DNA from: a virus
Strand: one strand, 5' to 3'
Virus record (IMG/VR): IMGVR_UViG_3300045988_024953
DNA length: 42,963 nucleotides
In this document: one piece after another, positions 1-42,963 of the stretch
Layout: each line of letters starts with the position of its first letter
Numbering within the stretch: position 1 is the stretch's first letter
Translations under genes and position numbers: made by a program
The notes under the pieces: model-generated
What the model was told of the DNA's origin: nothing
Databases searched by the model: none
Seen by the model: the letters and a program-made list of their open reading frames with translations, nothing else

Positions 1-55
1 CCAGACATTGATCCAGAACATCCTGCCGGTCGTTGTGAGCCTGCTGTCCCAGATC
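1..55. repeat. Terminal overlap, copy 1 (identical to 42909-42963)
   Basis: Exact 55-nt identity read directly from the sequence. This is most simply an assembler circularisation overlap. Confidence 0.9.
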
Positions 56-3054: not shown

Positions 3055-3345
3055 ATGTTAGGATCAGGAAACGGCGAGCCACAAACGTGCGCCGAAAATT
3101 TATTAAAAACGCCACGCTTCTCTGTACCGTATGAGCGGATCAAAGGCATCGACGGCAGCTTGATCGACTCCCCTGCTGCCACAGCTGGCGATGATATGAT
3201 CGCCGATGCTGAGTGGCTCCTGGAAACATACGAGCCGCGGGTGCAGGTAAACAGCATTGAAGCCAACGAAACCGATGGAGTCGGTGACTTCGGCATTGTG
3301 GCGGATCTATCCATCAATATATTAGACGAGGAGGAAGATGCATGA
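3055..3345 (+). CDS. Baseplate wedge protein, gpW/gp25-like
   Basis: 96 aa with an IADAEWLLETYEPRVQV motif (GPW_gp25-like). It lies immediately upstream of baseplate J. Confidence 0.6.
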   Translation: MLGSGNGEPQTCAENLLKTPRFSVPYERIKGIDGSLIDSPAATAGDDMIADAEWLLETYEPRVQVNSIEANETDGVGDFGIVADLSINILDEEEDA

Positions 3346-4466
3346 GTGACTTAAATTTTATCACGATTGACTCCTCGGAGATTTACGACACCATAATCAC
3401 CGCACTGGAAAACGGCTGCAGCGACGAGCTATATCCTGGAGACGAACGCCGCATATTCGGCGAGGCTCTTGTGGCTGTCATTGTGGCCACATTCAACTCA
3501 GTGAATGATGCTTGCCGCCAGAGACTACTGCGCTACGCCAGAGGCGAAGTCCTGGACGCACTCGGAGAGTCAAGAGGAGTCTTGAGAGAGACACCGGTGT
3601 GCAGCACCGCAACGGAGCGCTTCTCGGTGTCAACAGCAATCGGTGACAATATAGTCATACCAAAGGGCACGCGAGTGACTTGCGACTACTCTCATTACTT
3701 CACTACCGACAAAACGGTCGTACTTCCAGCTGGTTCTTTGTATGTCGATGTCGGTATCACGGCAACAGTCGGCGGTGAGGAATACAACAAGATCCTTCCG
3801 GGATCAATCAATGTCATGGTGGACCAGATCCCATACATTGATAAAGTTGAAAACCTTGCCAAGACATCCGGCGGAGCTGACAAAGAGACGGACGATGTGT
3901 ATCGCGAAAGAATACGAACCAGCAGCGCAAAGGTGTCAGTTGCCGGACCAGCTATCGCCTACAAATACTGGGCCATGGCAGCAGATCCGACGATTGCAGA
4001 CGCGGTTGTTGAGTCTCCGAGCCCTGGTGTTGTTATGATCACGCCGATCGGATATGGTGGGCAGGTGCCAGACGAGTCGCTTCTGGCCAAGGTGCTGGCG
4101 TCCTGCTCTGCCGATGACGTTCGACCACTGACCGACCAGGTAAAGGTGCAAGCTCCGACTGTTGAGGAGTACGACATCGAATTGACCTATTACACATCAG
4201 CGGCAAACGAGTCGAAGTGTGTCAGTACAATCGAAGGAAGCGGCGGAGCTATTGACCAGTACAACTACTGGCAAGGCTCGGCACTAAGCCGAGACATCAA
4301 CCCGGACTATCTTCGCAAGCTAATTCTTGCACCGAGCTGGGGGGATGATCTTGTCGGCGCCGACCGCGTTGATATAGTGAGCCCGGTATATACCGATCTC
4401 AGCAAAACAACCGTCGCAAAATTCTCCGGGACAATCAAAGTATCACATGTCGTAGAGGAGGGATAG
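3342..4466 (+). CDS. Baseplate J-like protein (XkdT/gpJ)
   Basis: 374 aa. Size, position and N-terminal pattern (ELYPGDERRIFGEAL...) are typical of the Baseplate_J family. Confidence 0.8.
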   Translation: MSDLNFITIDSSEIYDTIITALENGCSDELYPGDERRIFGEALVAVIVATFNSVNDACRQRLLRYARGEVLDALGESRGVLRETPVCSTATERFSVSTAIGDNIVIPKGTRVTCDYSHYFTTDKTVVLPAGSLYVDVGITATVGGEEYNKILPGSINVMVDQIPYIDKVENLAKTSGGADKETDDVYRERIRTSSAKVSVAGPAIAYKYWAMAADPTIADAVVESPSPGVVMITPIGYGGQVPDESLLAKVLASCSADDVRPLTDQVKVQAPTVEEYDIELTYYTSAANESKCVSTIEGSGGAIDQYNYWQGSALSRDINPDYLRKLILAPSWGDDLVGADRVDIVSPVYTDLSKTTVAKFSGTIKVSHVVEEG

Positions 4467-4467
4467 C

Positions 4468-5592
4468 ATGAGCATGAAACTTGAAAATGTCGAAATTGTG
4501 AAGCTGCTCCCTCCCTGGATGCGACAAGACGAAGCAAACGCAGCACTCAGCAGATCCGCGAGCTCTCTTTTTCAGGAACCAGCCAAGAGGATCAAACAAC
4601 TCCGGATCTGGGACAAAATTGACGAGCTGGACGATGATATGCTGGACGAGCTGGCCTGGGAGCTGAACATCGACTGGTACAGCTCAGCCATGGAGATCTC
4701 CAAAAAAAGAGCAACCATCAAAGTGGCGCACTTGATCATGGAAAAGCGTGGCACAAAATGGGCTGTCGAACAGCTTATATCCGCGTACTTCGGCACCGGA
4801 TATGTCAAAGAATGGTTTGAGTACGGTGGCGATCCGTATATGTTCCGCGTTTTGACCACCAACCCCGACATCGGGGACGATGGCATGGCTGGCTTTTTCA
4901 AGCAGGTAGACGTTGCCAAAAGTGTCCGATCACACATGGAAGGCGTCTACTTTTACGAGGAACTTGAGCCGGTGATCCTGGTCTCTCCCACTTCTACTGC
5001 TCATGTATTTGAGTATGTAAAATGCGGGACCAGACCAAGATCTGCAAACATCGGCAGGATCAAGACGACCACTATCGAGGCGAGCCCTCAGGCATCGAGC
5101 CATGGTTTTGAATATACACACGCCGGAGACGGTACCAAGGCTGGCACCTACCCACGCCAGGCAAACGTGGCCAAGATAAAAAACGGAGAGGTTGATGCCC
5201 TTCCGCAGTCAAGACATCACCCTTTTGAATATGCCACACACGCCGGGGATGGCACCAAAGCCGGTACCTACCCGAACCGGATGGCTCTGGGTGAAATAAC
5301 AAAAGCAACAGTTGAAGCCGATGGATCCGCCGAAATCATCGGCTTTATGTATGCCAGAACGACCGGCACCTATCCGAGAGCTGCTAACAATGCTGAGATT
5401 ACAACGGCAGCAGTTGAAACAGACGGATCTCTCGATCCGCATCAATTTGAGTATATCAGGAAAGCGGGAACGAGCCCAAGGCACGCCACTCTCGCTGAGA
5501 CAGCTCAAGGAAACATGGAGGCAGCAGGCGCCACCTCGGTGCACTGTTTCACATACACAAAATGCGGCACTAAGAAGTGCGGGCAAAAGTAG
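4468..5592 (+). CDS. Tail protein gpI/XkdU-like with C-terminal tandem repeats
   Basis: N-terminal LPPWMR...LDELAWELNIDWY...KRGTKWAVEQL matches the P2 gpI-type family. The C-terminal half carries six FEY...GT.PR.AN repeats. Confidence 0.65.
   Translation: MSMKLENVEIVKLLPPWMRQDEANAALSRSASSLFQEPAKRIKQLRIWDKIDELDDDMLDELAWELNIDWYSSAMEISKKRATIKVAHLIMEKRGTKWAVEQLISAYFGTGYVKEWFEYGGDPYMFRVLTTNPDIGDDGMAGFFKQVDVAKSVRSHMEGVYFYEELEPVILVSPTSTAHVFEYVKCGTRPRSANIGRIKTTTIEASPQASSHGFEYTHAGDGTKAGTYPRQANVAKIKNGEVDALPQSRHHPFEYATHAGDGTKAGTYPNRMALGEITKATVEADGSAEIIGFMYARTTGTYPRAANNAEITTAAVETDGSLDPHQFEYIRKAGTSPRHATLAETAQGNMEAAGATSVHCFTYTKCGTKKCGQK
5002..5592 (+). repeat. Six degenerate ~33-40-aa coding repeats in the gpI-like protein
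   Basis: The units begin HVFEYVKCGTRPRSAN, HGFEYTHAGDGTKAGTYPRQAN, HPFEYATHAGDGTKAGTYPNRMA, IGFMYARTTGTYPRAAN, HQFEYIRKAGTSPRHAT and HCFTYTKCGTKKCG. Confidence 0.75.
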
Positions 5593-5606
5593 GAAGGAGG
5601 CAACCT

Positions 5607-5921
5607 ATGGCGGCAAATTTTTTCAGTGACAGCTTTATGGCACGCCGTCGGCAGCAGTGGCTCCGCTCTATCCTCAGACTGGAGGTAAGAACCAACGGGA
5701 CGTGGTATGAGGGAGACATCCAGAAGAAAGAAGTCCAGGGCGACACCCTGGTCCTCAATGTTGTGTTTTCTGCCGTCGACAACATGAGCTGCACAATCGA
5801 CCGATCAAGGATTTTCGACGTATATGGCGAAGTTATCCACGAGCAGGTTGAAGCAATCAAAAAGGCAAAAGGCCAGGGCACAATGATCCAGATCAAGGTG
5901 CCGATCAAAGAACCAAGTTAA
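5607..5921 (+). CDS. Hypothetical tail-fibre-module protein
   Basis: AGGAGG at 5595-5600 followed by the ATG at 5607. No recognisable domain. Confidence 0.55.
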   Translation: MAANFFSDSFMARRRQQWLRSILRLEVRTNGTWYEGDIQKKEVQGDTLVLNVVFSAVDNMSCTIDRSRIFDVYGEVIHEQVEAIKKAKGQGTMIQIKVPIKEPS

Positions 5922-5933
5922 GGAGGCGAAACC

Positions 5934-6368
5934 ATGTACAGAGAAACAAAATGGCAGGACGAAATCGTTGACTCCGAAACAAAGGAACTGATCCAGGACG
6001 GAACCGATCAGTCTGCCGGAAATTTCAACAATGCAGAGCATGGCATCAGCGACGCGCATCTTGCGGCACTGATCATGTTCTCTGGGATGCTTCCACAGAT
6101 CCGTGCCAACACTGTGGAAAAAAAGACAGTCACACTGACAAACACGAAGCGCGTCCCATTCAACAATAGCAAAAAGTCCGTCGCTCTTGCTGAAACCAGA
6201 GACTCCCTCAACTACGACGTTGAGGTTGAGGTCGTGGAGACCGCAGGCACCGGCATCGTTGGAGAGTTTGACATCACCGACAAGATGCTCAACGGCTTCA
6301 AAATTGCATACAGCGGAAGCGCCTCAAGCGTAACCGTGAATTTAACCATCAAAGGAGGTAGCAACTAA
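5934..6368 (+). CDS. Putative tail fibre / fibre-associated protein
   Basis: The N-terminal GTDQSAGNFNNAEHGISDAH motif resembles the conserved N-termini of Firmicutes prophage tail fibres (XkdV-like). Confidence 0.45.
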   Translation: MYRETKWQDEIVDSETKELIQDGTDQSAGNFNNAEHGISDAHLAALIMFSGMLPQIRANTVEKKTVTLTNTKRVPFNNSKKSVALAETRDSLNYDVEVEVVETAGTGIVGEFDITDKMLNGFKIAYSGSASSVTVNLTIKGGSN

Positions 6369-6751
6369 TGGCAAAGGAAAAACCAGTGACCGTTGTTGAG
6401 ATCAACGAGGGCACAAAAATCGACTACGAACAGAACGGCACAAAGCTCACATTCGACGATCAGCTTATGATCAACGTGGCAAAGTACCAGAAGGGCTTCC
6501 CGGTACATGTTGACATCTGCATGGATGCTGACAGAAACCTCTGCACCGGCGTGGCTGCTGGACTCTTTTATGTTGCACAGCTTGACATCCCTGCTATCAA
6601 GTACGAGGAGCAGACAACAAGCGAAAACGACAGCTCTGACGAGAATGGCATGAACCCGCAGACGCCACCCGCAGTCATTCCGCTCGATATGTCAGACGTA
6701 ACTCTCACATTATGGAGCATCGACCAGCTGACTCCAGCAACCGAAGAATAG
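6368..6751 (+). CDS. Hypothetical tail-fibre-module protein
   Basis: 127 aa. TAATG coupling with the upstream gene. Acidic C-terminal half. Confidence 0.5.
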   Translation: MAKEKPVTVVEINEGTKIDYEQNGTKLTFDDQLMINVAKYQKGFPVHVDICMDADRNLCTGVAAGLFYVAQLDIPAIKYEEQTTSENDSSDENGMNPQTPPAVIPLDMSDVTLTLWSIDQLTPATEE

Positions 6752-6760
6752 GAGGAAAAC

Positions 6761-7831
6761 ATGAGTAAACCTAATTTTGATTTATCAAATCTGGCGCTCC
6801 AGATGGTGCTGCCAAACAATGAGCTTATTTATGACGACAAGGGGATGCCTTCCGTCATGGTCAAGATCCCAAAATTTAAGATCAGTGACGTGATCACCGG
6901 CGGATCAAGCAACACACACCCTGCCTTTATTGTAAACGGCAAAGAAATCGACGCGATCTACATCAGCAAGTACCTCAATGTTGTTGATGATGGCAGAGCC
7001 TACTCTCTCCCAGGCCAGGATCCGGCGAACACACTCAACTTTGACCAGGCAGTGCAGTATTGCACAGCAAAAGGAGAGGGCTGGCATCTTATGACCAACG
7101 CAGAATGGGCTGCCGTTGAGCTCTGGTGCTTAAAGAATGGCTTCATCCCTAAGGGTAACAACAATTACGGAAAAGACGGATCCGAGAGCAACCGCAAGGC
7201 TATTCCGTCCAACATGGATGGCTCGAACGTCGGAAGAACCGCAACCGGAACCGGTCCTCTTTCCTGGTATCACGACGGAACCGTTTGCGGCATTGCGGAT
7301 CTCAAGGGTGATGTCTGGGAATGGTCTGGCGGCCTCCGTTTTGTATTCGGAGAGGTGCAGGTGCTCGCAGATAACAGCGCCGCGGATCTCGACAACCCTC
7401 AGAACGCATCCAGCGCAATGTGGAAAGCCATTGACGCAACAAGTGGCAGCTTAATCGATCCTAAGGGAGACGGACGCACCGCGAACTCTGTCAAGGTCGA
7501 CATTGTTTCCGGAAAGATGCAGTACACCACCACCATCGCCAACGCTACCGGCAATGTAAACTGCAAATTTGCAGAAATCACTTGCGCGGCGTCAATCGGC
7601 GCAGCAGCGAAGGCAGTCCTCCAGGCGCTCGGTCTGCTCTGCACCGACACCTCTGCAGACTACGCAACAAGCCAGTGCTACCTCAACAATGCAGAGGCAG
7701 AGCGTCTGGTGTCTCGCGGGGGCCGCTGGTACCACTCTGCGTCTGGACTCTTTTCGTTCTACGGCAACATTCCGCGCTCGTCTGTGTACTGGAGCATCGG
7801 TTTCCGCTCCGCTTATTACAAGAAGATCTGA
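6761..7831 (+). CDS. DGR target protein: FGE-sulfatase/C-type-lectin-fold putative receptor-binding tail protein
   Basis: 356 aa. The motifs GWHLMTNAEWAAVELW, GDVWEWSGG and C-terminal WSIGFRSA are typical of the FGE-sulfatase/CLec fold. VR occupies the last ~40 codons. Confidence 0.9.
   Translation: MSKPNFDLSNLALQMVLPNNELIYDDKGMPSVMVKIPKFKISDVITGGSSNTHPAFIVNGKEIDAIYISKYLNVVDDGRAYSLPGQDPANTLNFDQAVQYCTAKGEGWHLMTNAEWAAVELWCLKNGFIPKGNNNYGKDGSESNRKAIPSNMDGSNVGRTATGTGPLSWYHDGTVCGIADLKGDVWEWSGGLRFVFGEVQVLADNSAADLDNPQNASSAMWKAIDATSGSLIDPKGDGRTANSVKVDIVSGKMQYTTTIANATGNVNCKFAEITCAASIGAAAKAVLQALGLLCTDTSADYATSQCYLNNAEAERLVSRGGRWYHSASGLFSFYGNIPRSSVYWSIGFRSAYYKKI
7702..7813 (+). repeat. DGR variable region (VR)
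   Basis: Aligns without gaps to 8280-8391. There are 13 mismatches, all opposite TR adenines. Confidence 0.93.
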
Positions 7832-7857
7832 CAATCTGATAATCTGAGGATCTGATC
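7826..7857 (+). repeat. 8-bp tandem array: ATCTGA x4 with 2-nt spacers
   Basis: The sequence is atctgaca atctgata atctgagg atctgatc. The TGAs at 7829, 7837, 7845 and 7853 cover all three frames, and the first is the target gene's stop codon. Confidence 0.85.
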
Positions 7858-7882
7858 AGGGGCGCCCGCCAAAGCGCCCCTG
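7857..7882 (+). promoter_or_regulatory. GC-rich stem-loop downstream of VR (candidate DGR target-recognition hairpin and/or terminator)
   Basis: caggggcgc (7857-7865) pairs with gcgcccctg (7874-7882) around an 8-nt loop ccgccaaa, followed by gttattta. Confidence 0.6.
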
Positions 7883-7905
7883 GTTATTTATGAGAAAGGA
7901 AGCAC

Positions 7906-8247
7906 ATGGCAGATTTAAAACTACAACAAAAGATTGAGAGGATGATCTCAAAGTCATCCATCTGGATCAACAATATGCCAAAGCCCGACAAATTCGTGCT
8001 CGGCGAAGAAATAAGAAGATCAGAGTGGATGATGCTCCGGTGGAGTATTCTGGGAAATGCTACACATAAAAGCAAACGACCATATCAGGAAAAGATTGAC
8101 GACGAGCTCAAGGTGCTCAAAGGCTTCATTGATCTGGCCGTGCAGCCAGAAAATAAGCTGATCAGTCCAGGAGCTCACGGAGAATGGACTGCGATGCTGA
8201 CAGAAATCGGCTGCATCCTCGGTGGATGGATAAACCGCACAACATGA
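7906..8247 (+). CDS. avd: DGR accessory variability determinant (Avd)
   Basis: 113 aa, basic and helical. The C-terminal TEIGCILGGWINR resembles the EVGRILGSWIARVN of Bordetella phage Avd. It lies between the target gene and TR. Confidence 0.85.
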   Translation: MADLKLQQKIERMISKSSIWINNMPKPDKFVLGEEIRRSEWMMLRWSILGNATHKSKRPYQEKIDDELKVLKGFIDLAVQPENKLISPGAHGEWTAMLTEIGCILGGWINRTT

Positions 8248-8279
8248 TCGCACCGTGGGGGATGTGCCGGGAAATCGTG

Positions 8280-8391
8280 GCGTCTGGTGTATCGCGGGGG
8301 CAACTGGAACAACTCTGCGAATGGACTCTTTTCGTTCAACGGCAACAATCCACGCTCGAATGTGAACTGGAGCATCGGTTTCCGCTCCGCT
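8280..8391 (+). repeat. DGR template region (TR)
   Basis: This is the invariant copy of VR, with 23 adenines. In the VR frame it has 9 AAY codons plus one TAT. It is non-coding and sits between avd and the RT gene. Confidence 0.93.
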
Positions 8392-8582
8392 CTGGTCTAT
8401 TTTGTTGAGGATCCACGGCACTCATGGGTGCCTGGCAACGGTCCAGATCAAAGGGGCACGTCTCCCGGTATAGAAATCTATACCAAAGACAGATCCGCCT
8501 GACAATGGGCGGTGTTTACTGCGTAGGCTGGCCGGATCATCGGATTGTCACGCGCAGCTATTAAAGAACAAAGGAGGCAACA
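8392..8582 (+). ncRNA. TR-RT spacer, probably part of the DGR template RNA
   Basis: Non-coding. Three stem-loops: ggcac/gtgcc (8417-8432), ggtataga/tctatacc (8467-8484) and ccgcc/ggcgg (8495-8512). Confidence 0.5.
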
Positions 8583-9692
8583 ATGGAACAATGTAAAAAC
8601 ATGTTCGAGAAAATCTACGCATGGGAGAACCTTCTGGACGCATATCACCATGCAGCCAGTGAGAAATGGTTCCGCGACGACGTGGCGGCCTTCTCTGCTC
8701 ATCTGGGTGAAAACCTAACAGACATTCAAAACTCGCTTATCTGGAAAACATACACGGTTGGAAGGTATCGCGAGTTTTATGTTTATGAGCCAAAAAAGCG
8801 CCTTGTCATGGCTCTGAATTTTCGTGACAGAGTTGTGCAGTGGGCGATATATTTGCAGCTCAATCCTCTGCTCGACAATCAATTTATTTACCACAGCTAC
8901 GGCTGCCGGGTAGGCAAAGGAACAACCAGAGCTGCCGATCAACTTCAATACTGGATGCGCATGGCAGACAGAAAACCAATTCCCTGGTACTATTTGAAGC
9001 TCGATATATCAAAGTATTTTTACCGAGTGGACCATAATGTCCTGCTCGGGATCCTCAGGAGAAAATTCAAGGGAGAGGATGACCTGCTCTGGTTGATGGA
9101 TAAGATCATCAACTGCGACCACACTCCCTTCGGATTGCCTCCTGGGCTTAATGTTGACGACATACCGCCAAGTGAGCGACTTTTTGAAGTCGGGATGCCG
9201 ATCGGCAACTTGACGAGCCAACTGCTTGCAAATGTGTGTCTTAATGAGCTGGATCAGTACATCAAGCACGAGCTCCGCGTCCATTGTTATGTCAGATATA
9301 TGGACGACATGGTGCTACTGCATCCGGACAAGACTTTCCTCAACAAGTGCAAGGATCTGATTGAGGAATATCTCAACGATATACTTCACCTGGAGCTCAA
9401 CAGCAAGACAACCATCGGCAAAGTCTCCTGCGGGATCACTTTTGTCGGGTATGTAATCCGGCCAACATACCGGAAACTAAAACGCAAGTCGCTCCGCAAA
9501 ATGAAGGCACGCATCCGTTACATCCAAAAGGAGTACGAAAGCGGCCTCATTGATTTTGAGGACGTCAACAACACGATGCAGAGCTACTTCGGACAGATGT
9601 CAAACTTTGACAGCTATGGACTCAGGAAGTGGATCACTGAAAACATCGCCTTCCAGCGCGGAGAGACACGCGGGAAAGGAGGTATCACATGA
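8583..9692 (+). CDS. DGR reverse transcriptase
   Basis: 369 aa. YMDD at 9297-9308 and the DGR-hallmark IGNLTSQ at 9201-9221. AGGAGG RBS upstream. Confidence 0.95.
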   Translation: MEQCKNMFEKIYAWENLLDAYHHAASEKWFRDDVAAFSAHLGENLTDIQNSLIWKTYTVGRYREFYVYEPKKRLVMALNFRDRVVQWAIYLQLNPLLDNQFIYHSYGCRVGKGTTRAADQLQYWMRMADRKPIPWYYLKLDISKYFYRVDHNVLLGILRRKFKGEDDLLWLMDKIINCDHTPFGLPPGLNVDDIPPSERLFEVGMPIGNLTSQLLANVCLNELDQYIKHELRVHCYVRYMDDMVLLHPDKTFLNKCKDLIEEYLNDILHLELNSKTTIGKVSCGITFVGYVIRPTYRKLKRKSLRKMKARIRYIQKEYESGLIDFEDVNNTMQSYFGQMSNFDSYGLRKWITENIAFQRGETRGKGGIT

Positions 9693-10036
9693 TCGACATC
9701 AGCATCCTGATCGCAGTCATCGGCGTCGTTTTATCTATCGCAACATTTTACTTCGGCCGCCAGGCTGGAGCAAAGCAAGATGGGAAAAGCGCCGGAGCGC
9801 TGGAGACAGACATCAGCTACATCAAGGAAAGCGTGCAGCGCATTGAAACCCAGCTCAATCGAGACGTGCAAAGGCTCGAGGGGCGCATCGACGAGATCAG
9901 CAATCAAATGAGCATTATCAGCAACACGGCCGGTAGAGCCCACGAGTCCGCTAAGTCGGCGCACAATCGCATCGACGAGCACTTGCAGCGCGAGCACAAC
10001 ATCACAGTGGAAAGGGGACGGACAAATGAGACGTAA
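9689..10036 (+). CDS. Membrane-anchored coiled-coil protein of the lysis cassette
   Basis: 115 aa with an N-terminal TM helix followed by a coiled coil. ATGA overlap with the RT stop. It precedes the holin and endolysin. Confidence 0.45.
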   Translation: MIDISILIAVIGVVLSIATFYFGRQAGAKQDGKSAGALETDISYIKESVQRIETQLNRDVQRLEGRIDEISNQMSIISNTAGRAHESAKSAHNRIDEHLQREHNITVERGRTNET

Positions 10037-11830: not shown

Positions 11831-11863
11831 CCCAGCAGGACCATCACCTGCTGGGTGTTTTTT
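11831..11863. terminator. Bidirectional rho-independent terminator between convergent lysis and integrase genes (also a candidate attP)
   Basis: cccagcagg (11831-11839) pairs with cctgctggg (11847-11855). It is flanked by an A-run upstream and a T-run downstream. Confidence 0.7.
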
Positions 11864-13487
11864 AGTGCTCGGCGAACACTTTCCAGTTAAAGACAAAACT
11901 CACAACACCGCGGAAATAAAGGATCCGCGTGGTGTTCGCCTCAGACTCATTTAGTGGAGCAGACGAGTCCAAAGGCGAACCCTCTGCACCATCCATGTCA
12001 ACAAGTTCCTGCTCGATCTGCCTGAGCGTCAGCTGGTTGTTTTCGCCGGTATAATTGTAATTGATCACGATCCGGCCATCGTCCCAGAGATAAACAGACG
12101 AGACAAACGCCTCCACCAGCTTCGTGCGATAATCAGGATCGTCAAGACTGCCCTCTTTGAACTTCTCCAGAAAATACACAATCTGGTCACGCTCGATGTC
12201 TGGCGTTGCTATCTTCTCCCTTGCTATCGCGGCACTGATCTGATCCCGCTGCTCCTCAAGCTCCATGAGCCTCTGCTTCGTGCTTTTCGTGATGATGCCC
12301 TGCTCAATCGCCTGCATCATGTTCCTGATCGAACTCTCCACATTCTTGAGACTTGCCTCCAGAGCATCGAGCTCTCCGTTGCTTTTCTTTTCTCTCTCCA
12401 GAAAGTCCATCACTCCGTCAGCAATCTGCTCGATCATATCCTCAGCAAGCACGACCTCTTTCGTATATTTTACAACAATATCCTCAATCCATTCCTTTTT
12501 CACCGGCTTTTTATCACAACCGTGCCGCCTGGTTCGGTTTACGCAGGCATAATAGTCGTATTTCTTACCAGACTTGCCGGTGCCAGCTCTGCCGACCATC
12601 AGCTCACCGCAGTGGCCACAGAACAGCTTCGAGGTGAGGATGTAGTCCGCAACCTTCCATTTATGCGCCGGAGCTCTGGATCCTCGGTCGAGCTTGCGCT
12701 GCACACTGTCAAACAATGGCAGCGGGACGATCTGCGGCATACCGCCCGGAACAGTAACATCGCCCCAGGAATACTCGCCGATATACTTCCGGTTCCTCAG
12801 GATCCTGGTCACACTGTTTTTGTTAAAGGCAAAGCCTCGCGTTGTCCGGAAGCCTCTGGCGTTTAGGTCGTCGATGATCTCTTTCTGCGGAACGCCTGCA
12901 TCATACTTCTGGAATATACTCAGCACAACGCTGGCATAATCTGGATCAATCTCATAACAACCATCTTCTCCGGTGTAATACCCAAGCACCTGGACGCCGT
13001 TGGTCTTGCATTTCATGGCATTGCCTTCCAAACCTCTGAGGATGTTCTGGGAAAGCGCCGCGCTGTAATACTCGGCATATCCCTCGAGAACTGACTCCAG
13101 GATGATGCCCTCAGGTCCGTCCGGTATCGTCTCTTTTGCGTACAGAACGCGGACGCCGTTCTTTCTGAGCTTCGCCTTATATATGGCGCTGTCATATCTG
13201 TCGCGGGCGAAACGATCCACCTTGTAAGTGACAACGACCCGGAACTTGCCACGAGCTGAGTCCCTGATCATTTTCTGGAAGTCCGGACGGCTGTCTGTTC
13301 TTCCGGTGAGAGCTGAGTCTGTATATTCTGCAATGATCTTTATGTTGTTACGAGCAGCGAACTCGTGACACTCACGCAGCTGATCCTCGATTGACTCCTC
13401 TCTCTGGGAGTGGCTTGAGTACCTGGCATAAATGACGCCGATCATTCCATCACAATCCGACGCTGCCGCTGGTATCCTTTTTGCCAT
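11862..13487 (-). CDS. Large serine recombinase (integrase)
   Basis: Resolvase catalytic N-terminus (VIYARYSSHSQ...DRFARD), a recombinase domain and a Cys-rich zinc ribbon (CGHCG...YYACV). The ORF is open to 13496. I prefer the ATG at 13487, which has a GAGGTG RBS. Confidence 0.9.
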   Translation of the reverse strand: MAKRIPAAASDCDGMIGVIYARYSSHSQREESIEDQLRECHEFAARNNIKIIAEYTDSALTGRTDSRPDFQKMIRDSARGKFRVVVTYKVDRFARDRYDSAIYKAKLRKNGVRVLYAKETIPDGPEGIILESVLEGYAEYYSAALSQNILRGLEGNAMKCKTNGVQVLGYYTGEDGCYEIDPDYASVVLSIFQKYDAGVPQKEIIDDLNARGFRTTRGFAFNKNSVTRILRNRKYIGEYSWGDVTVPGGMPQIVPLPLFDSVQRKLDRGSRAPAHKWKVADYILTSKLFCGHCGELMVGRAGTGKSGKKYDYYACVNRTRRHGCDKKPVKKEWIEDIVVKYTKEVVLAEDMIEQIADGVMDFLEREKKSNGELDALEASLKNVESSIRNMMQAIEQGIITKSTKQRLMELEEQRDQISAAIAREKIATPDIERDQIVYFLEKFKEGSLDDPDYRTKLVEAFVSSVYLWDDGRIVINYNYTGENNQLTLRQIEQELVDMDGAEGSPLDSSAPLNESEANTTRILYFRGVVSFVFNWKVFAEH

Positions 13488-13492
13488 CCGGA

Positions 13493-13957
13493 TCACCTCG
13501 TTTCTGGCAAACCGATGATGGCGCCGCTCTTGTCTGCGAACTTATTGCAGCAGAGCATCACAATGTCGACGATCCAGCCGATCCCGAAACATCCAAGAGT
13601 CAACAACCAAAGGATGCCGGTGCCTATCTTTCCAACATAAAAGCGGTGGATCCCCATATACCCAAGCAGCACACAAAGAACCAGTGCGACGCCCTTGCTT
13701 TTCTGAGAGCGAACCGGCACAGCTACCTCTGGCACGATCGGATCAGCTGACGCGGCAGCAGTCGGAGCTCCCATCTTTTTACTTGTGGAATATGACAACC
13801 CAGTGCCGGGGATCCCGACCGTGGTCGTTGTCCTTCCTCTTGTGCTGAATGTTTTCTTGAACCCCTTCGGGCCGATGGATATGCTTGCGCTTTTTGCGTT
13901 CAAATTTACTCGCACGCCTGGCGCGATCTTCTTACTCTTTCTAAATCTCATTCCCAT
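13493..13957 (-). CDS. DUF4236-like N-terminus plus TM2-domain membrane protein
   Basis: 154 aa. N-terminal RFRKSKKIAPGVRVNL..., C-terminal GIHRFYVGKIGTGILWLLT...GIGWIVD TM2 motif. Its stop lies 3 nt before the integrase ATG. Confidence 0.65.
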   Translation of the reverse strand: MGMRFRKSKKIAPGVRVNLNAKSASISIGPKGFKKTFSTRGRTTTTVGIPGTGLSYSTSKKMGAPTAAASADPIVPEVAVPVRSQKSKGVALVLCVLLGYMGIHRFYVGKIGTGILWLLTLGCFGIGWIVDIVMLCCNKFADKSGAIIGLPETR

Positions 13958-41634: not shown

Positions 41635-42963
41635 GTGGCGAAATCAAAAACTCTCCAGGCGGTTGTTGAAATCGCCGGAACGCTGAGCCCCACACTCGCA
41701 TCATCAATCGGAGAAGTCACCGACAAACTCGGTGGCATCAATGTCAAAGCTCTGGCCGTCGGTGCAGCAGTCGGCGGCATTGCAGTGGCTACAACCAAGG
41801 CGGTGTTTGAAGCAGGAAAGGCACTCGTAGACCTGGGTGGAGAATTTGACAGCGCATACGACAACATTCGTATCGGTACCGGTGCAACTGGTGACGCTTT
41901 GCAGGATCTCCAGGACGACTTCAAGGAAGTGTATAAAAGTGTGCCGACAACAATGGAGGACGCCGGACAAGCTATTGCGGACTACAACACACGTCTGGGA
42001 CTAACTGGACCGCAACTGCAGGAAATATCCAAGCAAGCAATCCAAGTCTCTGACATGCTGGGCGACGATCTCGGCAGCGTTATCGAGGAGTCGAGCCAAG
42101 CCTTCCAGCAATGGAACATCGACGCGGATGACATGAGCGGCGCGATGGACTATGTGTTCAAAGCATCGCAGTCGACCGGTATGGGTTTTACTGACTTATT
42201 GAGTACAGTGCAACAGTTTGGACCTCAGCTGCAAGAGATGGGGTACTCCTTCGAGGAGTCCACCGCCCTGATCGGACAGCTTGATAAAGCCGGAGTAAAC
42301 ACTGGCGAAGTTCTGGGAGCGATGAAAAAATCAGTTAGCGCTCTGGCCAAAGAAGGCATAAGTGCAAGCGACGGACTGGCTCAATATTCCGAAAAGATCA
42401 AGGGCGCCAAAGATATGACGGAAGCAACAACAATAGCGTCCGAAATTTTTGGAACAAAGGCAGCCTCAACAATGGCGAAAGCAATCAGAGATGGCACACT
42501 TTCGGTGGACGACTTAACAAAGTCTCTCGAAGATAGCCAGGAGACAATCGCCGGGGCAGCTGGCGACACCTACGACTTTGCCGAACGCCTGCAACTTTTT
42601 AAGCAACAAGCTCAGGTTGCACTGGAGCCTCTCGCGAGCACGCTTTTTGACTCTCTCAATGACTTAATGCCTATTGTCGGCGAAGCAATGGAAGGAATTA
42701 TTCCAGTAATTGAGCAAATGAGTGAAGCAATAATCCCAATCGTTAAGGATTTACTGCCAAAGATCGGCCCGATGCTCACACAGCTCGTTCCTCCACTTGT
42801 AAGCATGGCGGGCACAATAGGCTCGCAGCTTATTCCTCCGATCGTTGAAATGGTGACAAGCCTCATCCCGGTAGCGATCCAGCTGGCTCAGGCACTCATG
42901 CCGGTGATCCAGACATTGATCCAGAACATCCTGCCGGTCGTTGTGAGCCTGCTGTCCCAGATC
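41635..42963 (+). CDS. Tail tape measure protein, N-terminal part (TP901-family core; continues at window position 2)
   Basis: GTG start after AGGAGGAGG. My own translation: VAKSKTLQAVVEIAGTLSPTLASSIGE...DYVFKASQSTGMGFTDLL.... No stop before the window end. Confidence 0.85.
   Translation, partial: MAKSKTLQAVVEIAGTLSPTLASSIGEVTDKLGGINVKALAVGAAVGGIAVATTKAVFEAGKALVDLGGEFDSAYDNIRIGTGATGDALQDLQDDFKEVYKSVPTTMEDAGQAIADYNTRLGLTGPQLQEISKQAIQVSDMLGDDLGSVIEESSQAFQQWNIDADDMSGAMDYVFKASQSTGMGFTDLLSTVQQFGPQLQEMGYSFEESTALIGQLDKAGVNTGEVLGAMKKSVSALAKEGISASDGLAQYSEKIKGAKDMTEATTIASEIFGTKAASTMAKAIRDGTLSVDDLTKSLEDSQETIAGAAGDTYDFAERLQLFKQQAQVALEPLASTLFDSLNDLMPIVGEAMEGIIPVIEQMSEAIIPIVKDLLPKIGPMLTQLVPPLVSMAGTIGSQLIPPIVEMVTSLIPVAIQLAQALMPVIQTLIQNILPVVVSLLSQI
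42664..42963 (+). repeat. 33-bp (11-codon) tandem periodicity inside the tape measure gene, upstream half
   Basis: Units LMPIVGEAMEG, IIPVIEQMSEA, IIPIVKDLLPK, IGPMLTQLVPP, LVSMAGTIGSQ, LIPPIVEMVTS, LIPVAIQLAQA, LMPVIQTLIQN. Confidence 0.8.
42909..42963. repeat. Terminal overlap, copy 2 (identical to 1-55)
   Basis: Exact 55-nt identity with the window start. Confidence 0.9.

What the first reader, a model, noticed from the sequence alone, without database searches (positions are those of the whole stretch)
6761..7831. DGR target is an FGE-sulfatase/C-type-lectin-fold protein placed where a receptor-binding fibre is expected
Seen in sequence: the 356-aa protein carries GWHLMTNAEWAAVELW, GDVWEWSGG and C-terminal WSIGFRSA motifs. 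VR occupies the final ~40 codons, leaving only YYKKI after it. Established knowledge: most DGR targets display their variable residues on a CLec/FGE-sulfatase-type fold at the extreme C-terminus. Inference: this is the distal receptor-binding protein, and the DGR mediates host-range or tropism switching. The N-terminal ~40 residues have no recognisable baseplate-attachment domain, so how it docks onto the gpI/J-type baseplate is open. The small upstream ORFs at 5607-6751 may act as adaptors.
Basis: partly seen in the sequence, partly recalled or inferred. Interest (0 to 1): 0.65.

Follow-up and report, generated by a model that had tools for sequence, protein, structure and literature searches.

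The report
DGR-diversified lectin-fold phage tail protein
A gut-bacterial phage uses a reverse-transcriptase "mutation cassette" to rewrite 12 surface residues of a globular lectin-fold protein encoded at the tip end of its tail genes; this is real and demonstrably active in nature, but it is a well-documented kind of system with a solved structural homologue.

Summary
ORF 6761-7831 (356 aa) is the target of a complete DGR: VR 7702-7813, hairpin, Avd, TR 8280-8391 and RT. All 13 VR/TR mismatches lie at TR adenines (P about 3e-11).

The AlphaFold model (pLDDT 92.6) superposes over its full length on TaqVP (PDB 5VF4, TM 0.91). TaqVP is the solved FGE-subtype C-type-lectin DGR variable protein of a Thermus prophage. 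TaqVP's nine solvent-exposed variable residues align with variable positions here.

Three near-identical phage contigs from other metagenomes differ 34-123 times more in the VR than elsewhere. Those differences fall only at TR-adenine sites, and the TR is unchanged, so the DGR is active in nature.

The gene ends the tail module (gpJ-gpI-three small ORFs-target) of a complete circular temperate myophage of about 42.9 kb with no other fibre gene. The same module occurs in Faecalibacterium phage Lagaffe, whose DGR is published, in Bacillus phage BalMu-1 and in about 60 Clostridia prophages.

The protein is one globular domain, not a fibre, and it is not Mtd-like beyond the lectin fold. Its receptor-binding role and the adaptor role of the small ORFs remain inferences.

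Verdict: a new member of a known kind, of modest interest.

The parts
3342..4466 (+). Baseplate J-like wedge protein.
   Evidence: Pfam Baseplate_J, E 4e-47. Homologous to Lagaffe, Bise and BalMu-1 gpJ.
4468..5592 (+). P2 gpI-like baseplate protein with six C-terminal repeats of about 35 aa.
   Evidence: Pfam Tail_P2_I at aa 27-154, E 3e-20. phrog_14404 baseplate protein. Repeats listed.
5607..5921 (+). s1, a small conserved protein (104 aa) and candidate adaptor of unknown fold class.
   Evidence: phrog_7177. Homologues sit at the same position in Lagaffe, BalMu-1 and 61 loci. AF2 pLDDT 88.5: one helix plus six strands. No significant PDB fold match.
5934..6368 (+). s2, a small conserved protein (144 aa) and candidate short fibre stub or adaptor.
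   Evidence: phrog_9010. Present in 70 loci. Its C-terminal domain aligns weakly with the C-terminus of the 309-aa fibre-like protein of Pseudomonas phage Bise (hhalign prob 32%). No PDB sequence match.
6368..6751 (+). s3, a small conserved protein (127 aa) always immediately upstream of the target; candidate adaptor or chaperone.
   Evidence: phrog_8734. Present in 71 loci, including Lagaffe, BalMu-1 and, weakly, Pseudomonas phage Bise. Its start codon overlaps the s2 stop codon.
6761..7831 (+). DGR target (variable protein): a single-domain FGE-subtype C-type-lectin fold, TaqVP-type.
7702..7813 (+). Variable repeat (VR), codons 315-351.
   Evidence: 112 nt, 88% identical to the TR, with all 13 mismatches at TR adenines. 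It is hypervariable between near-identical contigs.
7799..7813 (+). Adenine-free, GC-rich 3' end of the VR (GGTTTCCGCTCCGCT), identical in the TR. Homology ends just after it, so it is the IMH-like boundary.
   Evidence: Direct reading of the sequence. By analogy with the invariant last residues of the TaqVP VR (PMC6328139).
7857..7882 (+). GC-rich hairpin (9-bp stem, 8-nt loop) 26 nt after the stop codon. Candidate DGR target-recognition hairpin and/or terminator.
   Evidence: A hairpin at the same position occurs in 51 of 65 RT-bearing relatives, with different stem sequences.
7906..8247 (+). Avd accessory variability determinant.
   Evidence: Pfam bAvd, E 1e-13. NCBIfam DivGenRetAVD, E 4e-21, 75.4 bits against a cut-off of 80.
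8280..8391 (+). Template repeat (TR). It encodes RLVYRGGNWNNSANGLFSFNGNNPRSNVNWSIGFRSA and holds 23 adenines.
   Evidence: It is identical in three related contigs.
8495..8512 (+). Hairpin between the TR and the RT gene, possibly part of the DGR RNA spacer.
   Evidence: Function not tested.
8583..9692 (+). DGR reverse transcriptase.
   Evidence: Pfam RVT_1, E 7e-22. The sequence carries IGNLTSQ and YMDD. 56% of... homologous to Lagaffe RT, E 6e-185.

Best explanation
The ORF is the variable protein of a complete and currently active diversity-generating retroelement. The element is carried by a temperate contractile-tailed phage of gut Clostridia, most likely Lachnospiraceae.

Shown here:
- The TR (8280-8391) is the invariant master copy.
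- Its 23 adenines are the only sites at which the VR (7702-7813) differs from it, both in this genome and between natural relatives.
- Avd and an RT with DGR-type motifs lie between and after the repeats.
- The target folds as one globular FGE-subtype C-type-lectin domain that is homologous over its full length to TaqVP.
- Its 12 diversifiable residues fall on the positions that form TaqVP's solvent-exposed ligand-binding face. That face is framed by two invariant tryptophans, W323 and W344.

Inferred:
- The TR is transcribed and then reverse-transcribed by RT-Avd, with misincorporation opposite adenines.
- The resulting cDNA replaces the VR. Directionality is set by the adenine-free GC-rich VR end and the downstream hairpin.
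- The protein is a virion component mounted at the periphery of the gpJ/gpI baseplate, probably through the co-conserved small proteins s1-s3. There it acts as the distal ligand- or receptor-binding head.
- VR turnover therefore produces phage subpopulations with altered adsorption specificity.
For: DGR anatomy:
- establish the VR/TR pair, Avd and RT.
- A-only mismatches have P about 3e-11.

Activity in nature:
- Contigs L005, L007 and L008 are 99.7-99.9% identical to the window over 11.8 kb.
- Their VRs differ at 12, 14 and 11 of 112 positions, all at TR-adenine sites, and the TR is identical in all three. This is a 34-123-fold enrichment, with Fisher p of 1e-14 or lower.
- 17 members of the 90%-identity cluster (1381 member sequences) vary at exactly the 12 predicted residues, with the substitutions each codon permits.

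Fold:
- AF2 pLDDT 92.6, pTM 0.92.
- Foldseek to 5VF4: TM 0.91, E 4e-40.
- HMM to 5VF4: E 5e-67 over aa 20-354.
- The residue map to TaqVP's variable residues and invariant Trp is, read with PMC6328139.

Tail context:
- Baseplate_J and Tail_P2_I lie upstream, and lysis genes lie downstream.
- The whole genome is annotated and holds no other fibre gene.
- The same module occurs in Lagaffe, BalMu-1 and Bise and in about 60 of 80 species-level Clostridia genomes.

Fibre-tip role:
- In some relatives the same head is fused to N-terminal extensions of 190-320 aa with fibre-type motifs. Those relatives then lack s1-s3.
- BFVD hits include N-terminally extended proteins and proteins named tail collar fibre.
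- Klebsiella siphophages carry the head directly after an 869-aa tail protein.

Published precedent: PMC5883640, PMC11792537 and PMC8144416.
Against: - There is no direct evidence that the protein is in the virion or binds the host. TaqVP's own ligand and virion location are also unknown.
- TaqVP is monomeric in solution (PMC6328139), and no attachment domain is visible here.
- I could not compute solvent exposure on the model because its coordinates are not exposed to scripts. Exposure therefore rests on homology to TaqVP.
- The folds of s2 and s3 are unknown, and s1 has no significant structural match, so the adaptor role is only a co-conservation argument.
- The hairpin region is not strongly more stable than shuffled sequence over 106 nt (z = -1.3). 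It could simply be a terminator.
Confidence: 0.75

Rival explanations
1. The lectin head is an accessory or secondary adhesin rather than the essential receptor-binding protein. It might mediate reversible first contact, or binding to mucus or glycans in the gut. The essential host recognition would then be done by another baseplate component: s2, or the repeat-bearing C-terminus of gpI.
For: - The C-type-lectin fold is a general ligand-binding scaffold, and TaqVP's ligand is unknown (PMC6328139).
- Other Faecalibacterium phage DGRs target Hoc-like decoration proteins proposed to bind mucus (PMC5883640).
- gpI here carries six C-terminal repeats absent from a minimal gpI.
- The closest genome-resident relative (L009) has lost avd, TR and most of the RT but keeps the target, so diversification is dispensable in at least that lineage.
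Against: - No other recognisable fibre or RBP gene exists in the 42.9-kb genome.
- The head is fused to the C-terminus of fibre-like proteins in relatives, which is the usual place of the host-binding domain.
- The gene lies inside the baseplate operon, not with the head genes.
Confidence: 0.18
2. The DGR is a relic, and the VR/TR differences are old, fixed substitutions rather than ongoing mutagenic homing.
For: A single genome cannot distinguish past from present activity. Some Faecalibacterium prophage DGRs showed no read-level variation (PMC11792537). A related prophage has deleted its DGR.
Against: - Near-identical genomes from independent samples carry different VRs. The changes are confined to A-sites, and the TR is identical.
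- The cluster has 1381 member sequences.
- The RT, Avd and TR are intact.
Confidence: 0.03
3. The protein is an enzyme of the FGE/SUMF1/EgtB family (formylglycine-generating or sulfoxide synthase-like) rather than a binding protein.
For: There is a Pfam FGE-sulfatase hit. There are weak PDB hits to EgtB, SUMF and PvdO. RefSeq names homologues 'SUMF1/EgtB/PvdO family nonheme iron enzyme'.
Against: - The Pfam match covers only profile positions 87-188 of 255.
- The FGE catalytic Ser/Cys/Cys positions superpose on TaqVP D348, N351 and V354 (PMC6328139). Those map to R322, H325 and S328 here, which are hypervariable and not cysteine.
- Structural similarity to the enzymes is low, TM 0.3-0.4 against 0.91 for TaqVP.
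Confidence: 0.02

Closest known systems
TaqVP, variable protein of the Thermus aquaticus prophage DGR (PDB 5VF4; Handa, Shaw & Ghosh 2019, PMC6328139).
   Same: - Full-length homologue: HMM E 5e-67, 41.5% identity over 323 aligned residues, model TM 0.91.
- Single globular FGE-subtype C-type-lectin domain with an N-terminal wrap.
- VR at the extreme C-terminus.
- Eight of TaqVP's nine variable residues align exactly with variable residues here. The ninth lies next to a 1-residue gap.
- Both invariant binding-site tryptophans are conserved.
- The cassette order is the same: target-avd-TR-rt.
   Different: - 12 rather than 9 diversifiable residues, giving about 2.5e12 variants against 3e9.
- The protein is about 25 aa shorter.
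- The host is mesophilic gut Clostridia rather than Thermus.
- Here the tail-module context and natural variation are documented.
DGR of Faecalibacterium phage FP_Lagaffe (Lagaffevirus; Cornuault et al. 2018, PMC5883640; PMC11792537).
   Same: - The synteny is identical: TMP, LysM tail protein, baseplate, gpJ, gpI, three small ORFs, target, Avd, TR, RT, then lysis genes.
- The target is 54% identical. s1, s2, s3, Avd and RT are all homologous.
- The hairpin loop class is the same.
- Read-level VR variation is published for Lagaffe.
   Different: - This is a different phage: no nucleotide-level match, serine rather than IS30-type integrase, and a 42.9-kb rather than 48-kb genome.
- Lagaffe has a second VR/target (PMC11792537). 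This genome has only one.
Mtd, major tropism determinant of Bordetella phage BPP-1 (PDB 1YU0-1YU4).
   Same: The C-terminal FGE-type C-type-lectin domain carries the VR, diversification is A-specific, and the cassette order is the same. Mtd is the only case where tropism switching has been demonstrated.
   Different: [quoted passage not shown]
- The whole-chain fold match is poor: TM about 0.3, Foldseek prob 0.6-0.93.
- The protein here is single-domain and sits on a myophage baseplate.
TvpA (Treponema denticola DGR variable protein).
   Same: It is a single-domain, monomeric FGE-type C-type-lectin variable protein with a C-terminal VR (PMC6328139).
   Different: TvpA is a cellular lipoprotein, not phage-borne. 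It did not appear among the significant matches in the PDB searches here.

Membership tests
Diversity-generating retroelement (DGR) | A TR/VR repeat pair that differs essentially only at TR adenines. | tested here: met
   112-nt pair with 13 mismatches, all at TR adenines, P about 3e-11.
Diversity-generating retroelement (DGR) | A reverse transcriptase adjacent to the TR, with DGR-type motifs. | tested here: met
   RVT_1, E 7e-22. IGNLTSQ and YMDD are read in the translation. That these motifs are the DGR signature is established knowledge. No DGR-specific RT model was available in NCBIfam.
Diversity-generating retroelement (DGR) | An accessory protein (Avd). | tested here: met
   Pfam bAvd, 51.7 bits, above the cut-off of 40. 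NCBIfam DivGenRetAVD, 75.4 bits, just under its cut-off of 80.
Diversity-generating retroelement (DGR) | The VR lies at the 3' end of a protein-coding target and is followed by IMH and hairpin target-recognition elements. | tested here: inconclusive
   The VR position is met (codons 315-351 of 356). An adenine-free GC-rich end (7799-7813) and a GC hairpin (7857-7882) are present, and the hairpin is positionally conserved with differing stems in 51 of 65 relatives. Their function in homing was not tested.
Diversity-generating retroelement (DGR) | Ongoing adenine-specific diversification. | tested here: met
   Between near-identical contigs the VR is 34-123 times more divergent than the rest. 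All changes are at TR-A sites, and the TR is identical. 17 cluster members vary at the 12 predicted residues.
TaqVP-type C-type-lectin (FGE-subtype) DGR variable proteins | Full-length sequence and fold homology to TaqVP (5VF4). | tested here: met
   HMM E 5e-67 over aa 20-354. Foldseek TM 0.91, E 4e-40. Model pLDDT 92.6.
TaqVP-type C-type-lectin (FGE-subtype) DGR variable proteins | Variable residues are solvent-exposed and form one binding face framed by invariant aromatic residues. | tested here: inconclusive
   The alignment places the variable residues on TaqVP's exposed variable positions, and W323/W344 on W349/W371 (PMC6328139). Solvent accessibility could not be computed on the model itself.
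TaqVP-type C-type-lectin (FGE-subtype) DGR variable proteins | Monomeric, single-domain protein. | not testable with these tools
   The single compact domain is supported by pTM 0.92. The oligomeric state needs experiment or multimer modelling.
Mtd (BPP-1 major tropism determinant) family | N-terminal beta-prism and beta-sandwich trimerisation domains preceding the lectin domain. | tested here: not met
   Foldseek to 1YU0-1YU4 gives TM 0.27-0.31. There is no Mtd match in the PDB sequence search. The protein is one domain.
Formylglycine-generating enzyme / SUMF1-EgtB enzymes | Catalytic Ser/Cys/Cys (or metal-binding) site in the C-terminal part of the domain. | tested here: not met
   The equivalent positions are R322, H325 and S328. 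They are hypervariable and not Cys (mapping from PMC6328139). The Pfam match covers only profile positions 87-188 of 255.
Canonical phage tail fibre (trimeric shaft with N-terminal baseplate-binding domain) | An elongated shaft or coiled coil and an N-terminal attachment domain. | tested here: not met
   The model is a single globular domain. Relatives that do have such N-terminal extensions are distinct, longer proteins.

The most novel reading that the evidence does not exclude
The three small proteins s1-s3 (5607-6751) may form a previously undescribed adaptor set. It would mount a monomeric, shaft-less C-type-lectin head on the gpI/gpJ periphery of contractile-tail baseplates.

They have no Pfam, NCBIfam or PDB relatives. 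They are co-conserved with the TaqVP-type head across Clostridia prophages and Bacillus phage BalMu-1, and s3 also occurs in Pseudomonas phage Bise.

In lineages where the head is fused to its own fibre-like N-terminus, the set is absent. This suggests it is interchangeable with such an N-terminus.
Probability: 0.4. Interest if true: 0.45.

Novelty: new member of a known kind. Interest (0 to 1): 0.3.

Why it matters
The window adds a clean and demonstrably active example of a TaqVP-type DGR in a complete gut-Clostridia myophage genome.

It links the only solved structure of this subfamily (TaqVP, whose biological role was unknown) to a defined position: the distal end of a contractile-tail baseplate module.

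It also shows that this head travels with a conserved trio of uncharacterised small proteins. This makes one question directly testable: how a monomeric lectin head is attached to a baseplate.

The principle itself, a DGR diversifying a C-type-lectin tail protein in a gut phage, is already published. Examples are BPP-1, Lagaffe and global surveys, so the finding is confirmatory rather than surprising.

Tried and rejected
- Nucleotide search of 5600-9700 against 50,697 phage records found no match. The phage is known only at the protein and synteny level.
- A second VR or second target, as in Lagaffe, was not found. I scanned for the TR allowing any change at A positions and ran tblastn of the target against the window.
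- s1 as a stand-alone P22-tailspike N-terminal (particle-binding) domain is not supported. The s1 profile gave weak PDB hits (E 0.065-0.4). However, the confident AF2 model did not retrieve that domain, and no fold match was significant. The best were TM 0.41-0.44 to small neck chains of phages Bas63 and Sf14.
- s2 and s3 profiles against PDB sequences gave nothing. NCBIfam and Pfam gave nothing for s1-s3.
- A Rosetta-stone fusion of s1, s2 or s3 to the long target variants was not found.
- Mtd membership is rejected, because only the lectin domain is shared.
- An enzymatic FGE reading is rejected.

Full report
**1. The observation**

The ORF at 6761-7831 (+) encodes 356 aa and carries the three quoted motifs, at aa 107-122, 183-191 and 344-351. 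A direct repeat of 112 nt links 7702-7813 to 8280-8391.

Base by base, the two copies differ at 13 positions, and at every one the downstream copy has an adenine. With 23 adenines among 112 positions, the chance of that placement is about 3e-11.

The upstream copy covers codons 315-351 and is followed only by YYKKI and the stop codon.

Between the repeats lies a 113-aa Avd (Pfam bAvd; NCBIfam DivGenRetAVD, 75.4 bits against a cut-off of 80). After the TR lies a 369-aa reverse transcriptase (RVT_1) carrying IGNLTSQ and YMDD. The cassette has the canonical order target-avd-TR-rt.

One correction is needed. The 13 substitutions touch 10 codons, one of them silently, so 9 residues differ from the TR-encoded peptide in this copy. 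The TR holds 12 codons with a non-silent adenine (TAT, nine AAY, AGC, ATC). The theoretical repertoire is about 2.5e12 proteins.

**2. The DGR is active in nature**

The target has more than 2,500 homologues. The 90%-identity cluster nearest to the window holds 1,381 distinct sequences.

I recovered three contigs from other metagenomes that encode 97-98% identical targets. Over about 11.8 kb they differ from the window at 0.10-0.31% of positions. Within the 112-nt VR they differ at 12, 14 and 11 positions, every one at a TR-adenine site. The TR is identical in all three. That is a 34-123-fold excess, with Fisher p of 1e-14 or lower.

Seventeen cluster members vary at exactly residues 318, 322, 324, 325, 328, 334, 336, 337, 341, 343, 345 and 346. 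The substitutions are those each codon allows, for example S/F/Y at the TAT codon and I/V/F/L at ATC. Elsewhere there are only five singleton changes.

**3. Fold**

An AlphaFold2 model built on a 67-sequence alignment is confident (pLDDT 92.6, pTM 0.92).

A profile of the family hits one PDB entry strongly: 5VF4, the Thermus aquaticus DGR variable protein TaqVP, with E 5e-67 over aa 20-354. Foldseek gives TM 0.91 to 5VF4. FGE-family enzymes and Mtd reach only TM 0.27-0.39.

TaqVP is described as a single globular, monomeric, FGE-subtype C-type-lectin domain whose first ~110 residues wrap around the domain. Its nine variable residues are solvent-exposed and flanked by invariant W349 and W371 (PMC6328139).

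A pairwise alignment (41.5% identity over 323 residues) places eight of TaqVP's nine variable residues exactly on variable residues here. The ninth is next to a one-residue gap. The alignment also places W323 and W344 on the two invariant tryptophans. This protein has three extra diversifiable sites.

I could not compute accessibility on the model itself. Exposure is therefore an inference from homology to the crystal structure.

**4. Context**

The window has a 55-nt terminal direct overlap, so it is a circular assembly of about 42.9 kb.

Annotation gives a complete temperate myophage:
- terminase, portal, protease and capsid;
- sheath, tube and tape measure (which wraps the window ends);
- LysM/X, gpD-like, gpW, gpJ and gpI;
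- three small ORFs (s1-s3), the target and the DGR;
- holins and endolysin;
- serine integrase;
- replication genes and methyltransferases.

No other tail-fibre gene exists in the genome.

The same order, gpJ-gpI-s1-s2-s3-target-Avd-TR-RT, is found in three places:
- Faecalibacterium phage Lagaffe (54% identical target), whose DGR and FGE-superfamily target are published (PMC5883640, PMC11792537);
- Bacillus phage BalMu-1;
- about 60 of 80 species-level genomes, all Clostridia-type. The best match is an uncultured Lachnospiraceae at 73% identity.

s1, s2 and s3 are homologous in Lagaffe and BalMu-1. s3 is also weakly homologous in Pseudomonas phage Bise, where a 309-aa fibre-like protein takes the place of s2. 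The C-terminus of that protein aligns weakly with the C-terminus of s2.

**5. How it most likely works**

The mutagenic-homing steps are inferred from the BPP-1 paradigm: transcription of the TR, error-prone reverse transcription at adenines by RT-Avd, and replacement of the VR.

The adenine-free GC-rich VR end (7799-7813) fits the target-recognition elements described for BPP-1, and so does a 9-bp GC hairpin 26 nt after the stop codon. A hairpin at that position occurs in 51 of 65 RT-bearing relatives. Their stem sequences differ, and the loops are either GNRA-like tetraloops or a CCRCCAA(A) loop. It could also be a terminator.

Three things support the view that the protein is the distal binding head of the tail:
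- its position in the tail module;
- the lack of any other fibre gene;
- domain fusions. In several relatives the same head is the C-terminal domain of a 545-668-aa protein whose N-terminus has fibre-type coiled-coil and repeat motifs, and those loci lack s1-s3.

BFVD matches include such extended proteins and proteins named tail collar fibre. Klebsiella Casjensviridae phages carry the head, without any DGR, right after an 869-aa tail protein.

The protein is not itself a fibre.

The adaptor role of s1-s3 rests on co-conservation only. The s1 model (pLDDT 88.5; one helix plus six strands) has no significant structural match, and a weak profile hint to the P22 tailspike N-terminal domain was not confirmed.

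**6. Comparison and novelty**

The protein is a member of the TaqVP-type subfamily of C-type-lectin DGR variable proteins. The phage is a Lagaffe-like temperate myophage. It works like BPP-1 Mtd but is not a member of the Mtd family, because the trimerising domains are absent. It is also not an FGE enzyme, because the catalytic positions are hypervariable and not cysteine.

Global surveys already report that phage DGRs in gut Firmicutes mostly target tail proteins with C-type-lectin VR domains (PMC8144416). The finding is therefore a new member of a known kind.

What remains open, and mildly interesting, is how a monomeric lectin head is mounted on a contractile-tail baseplate, and what the conserved s1-s3 trio does.

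**7. Verdict**

- Observation: confirmed.
- Interpretation: supported, with corrections. The protein is a globular head rather than a fibre, it is TaqVP-type rather than Mtd-type, and it has 12 rather than 10 variable residues.
- Receptor binding and tropism switching remain inferences.
- Interest: 0.3.

Noticed in passing
window 1-55 and 42909-42963: The window has a 55-nt exact terminal direct overlap, so it is a circular assembly of about 42,908 bp. The tape-measure gene runs across the window ends.
   Followed up: partly
window ~11950-11960, inside the 3' end of the serine integrase ORF 11862-13496 (-); L008 15194-15539: Three near-identical contigs diverge from the window exactly here. 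One of them, L008, continues into a tmRNA (ssrA) gene. The relatives are therefore prophages integrated at the 3' end of ssrA, and the window is the excised circle. The attP core lies within the last ~33 codons of the integrase gene, so integration would change the integrase C-terminus.
   Followed up: partly
window 4468-5592, aa ~160-374 of the gpI-like protein: The C-terminal half of the gpI-like baseplate protein consists of six repeats of about 35 aa. The motif is roughly ...[FM][EMT]Y..(A)GT.PR.AN..I....VEA. The Lagaffe homologue (301 aa) is shorter. This could be a fibre-like extension or a docking platform.
   Followed up: no
L009 (uncultured Lachnospiraceae, closest genome relative, 73% identical target), locus 8115-8177: Only the last ~21 codons of the RT remain directly after the target gene. 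avd, the TR and most of the RT have been deleted, leaving a 'frozen' target in an otherwise syntenic prophage.
   Followed up: partly
L004 (Klebsiella phage YMC16/01/N133, Casjensviridae) 6935-8029, and 23 other Klebsiella phage records: Full-length homologues of the target (36-37% identity) occur in Klebsiella siphophages as the last tail gene, after an 869-aa protein. They have no RT or Avd nearby, so the TaqVP-type head is also used without a DGR.
   Followed up: no
proteins P0123, P0124, P0125, P0127, P0130 (members of the P0001 cluster): A sub-lineage of 357-aa variants has one extra residue in the VR and lacks W344 (for example ...VSTGIGF...VRASFGF). This implies a TR variant with an extra codon, or a different TR, in otherwise >90% identical targets.
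   Followed up: no
window 8495-8512: A 7-bp GC hairpin (CCGCCTG ACAA TGGGCGG... read as CCGCCTGACAATGGGCGG) lies between the TR and the RT start. It may belong to the structured spacer of the DGR RNA, or it may be a terminator.
   Followed up: no
L055 2282-3490; also Lagaffe (MG711461), which has 2 matching places: Some relatives carry a second target-like ORF upstream (402 aa in Gemmiger sp. An50). This fits the two-VR arrangement reported for Lagaffe (PMC11792537).
   Followed up: no
window 8287-8502 (+): A 71-aa ORF spans the TR in the same frame as the target C-terminus (MYRGGNWNNSANGLFSFNGNNPRS...). It is most likely just the open frame inherited from the repeat, not a gene.
   Followed up: no
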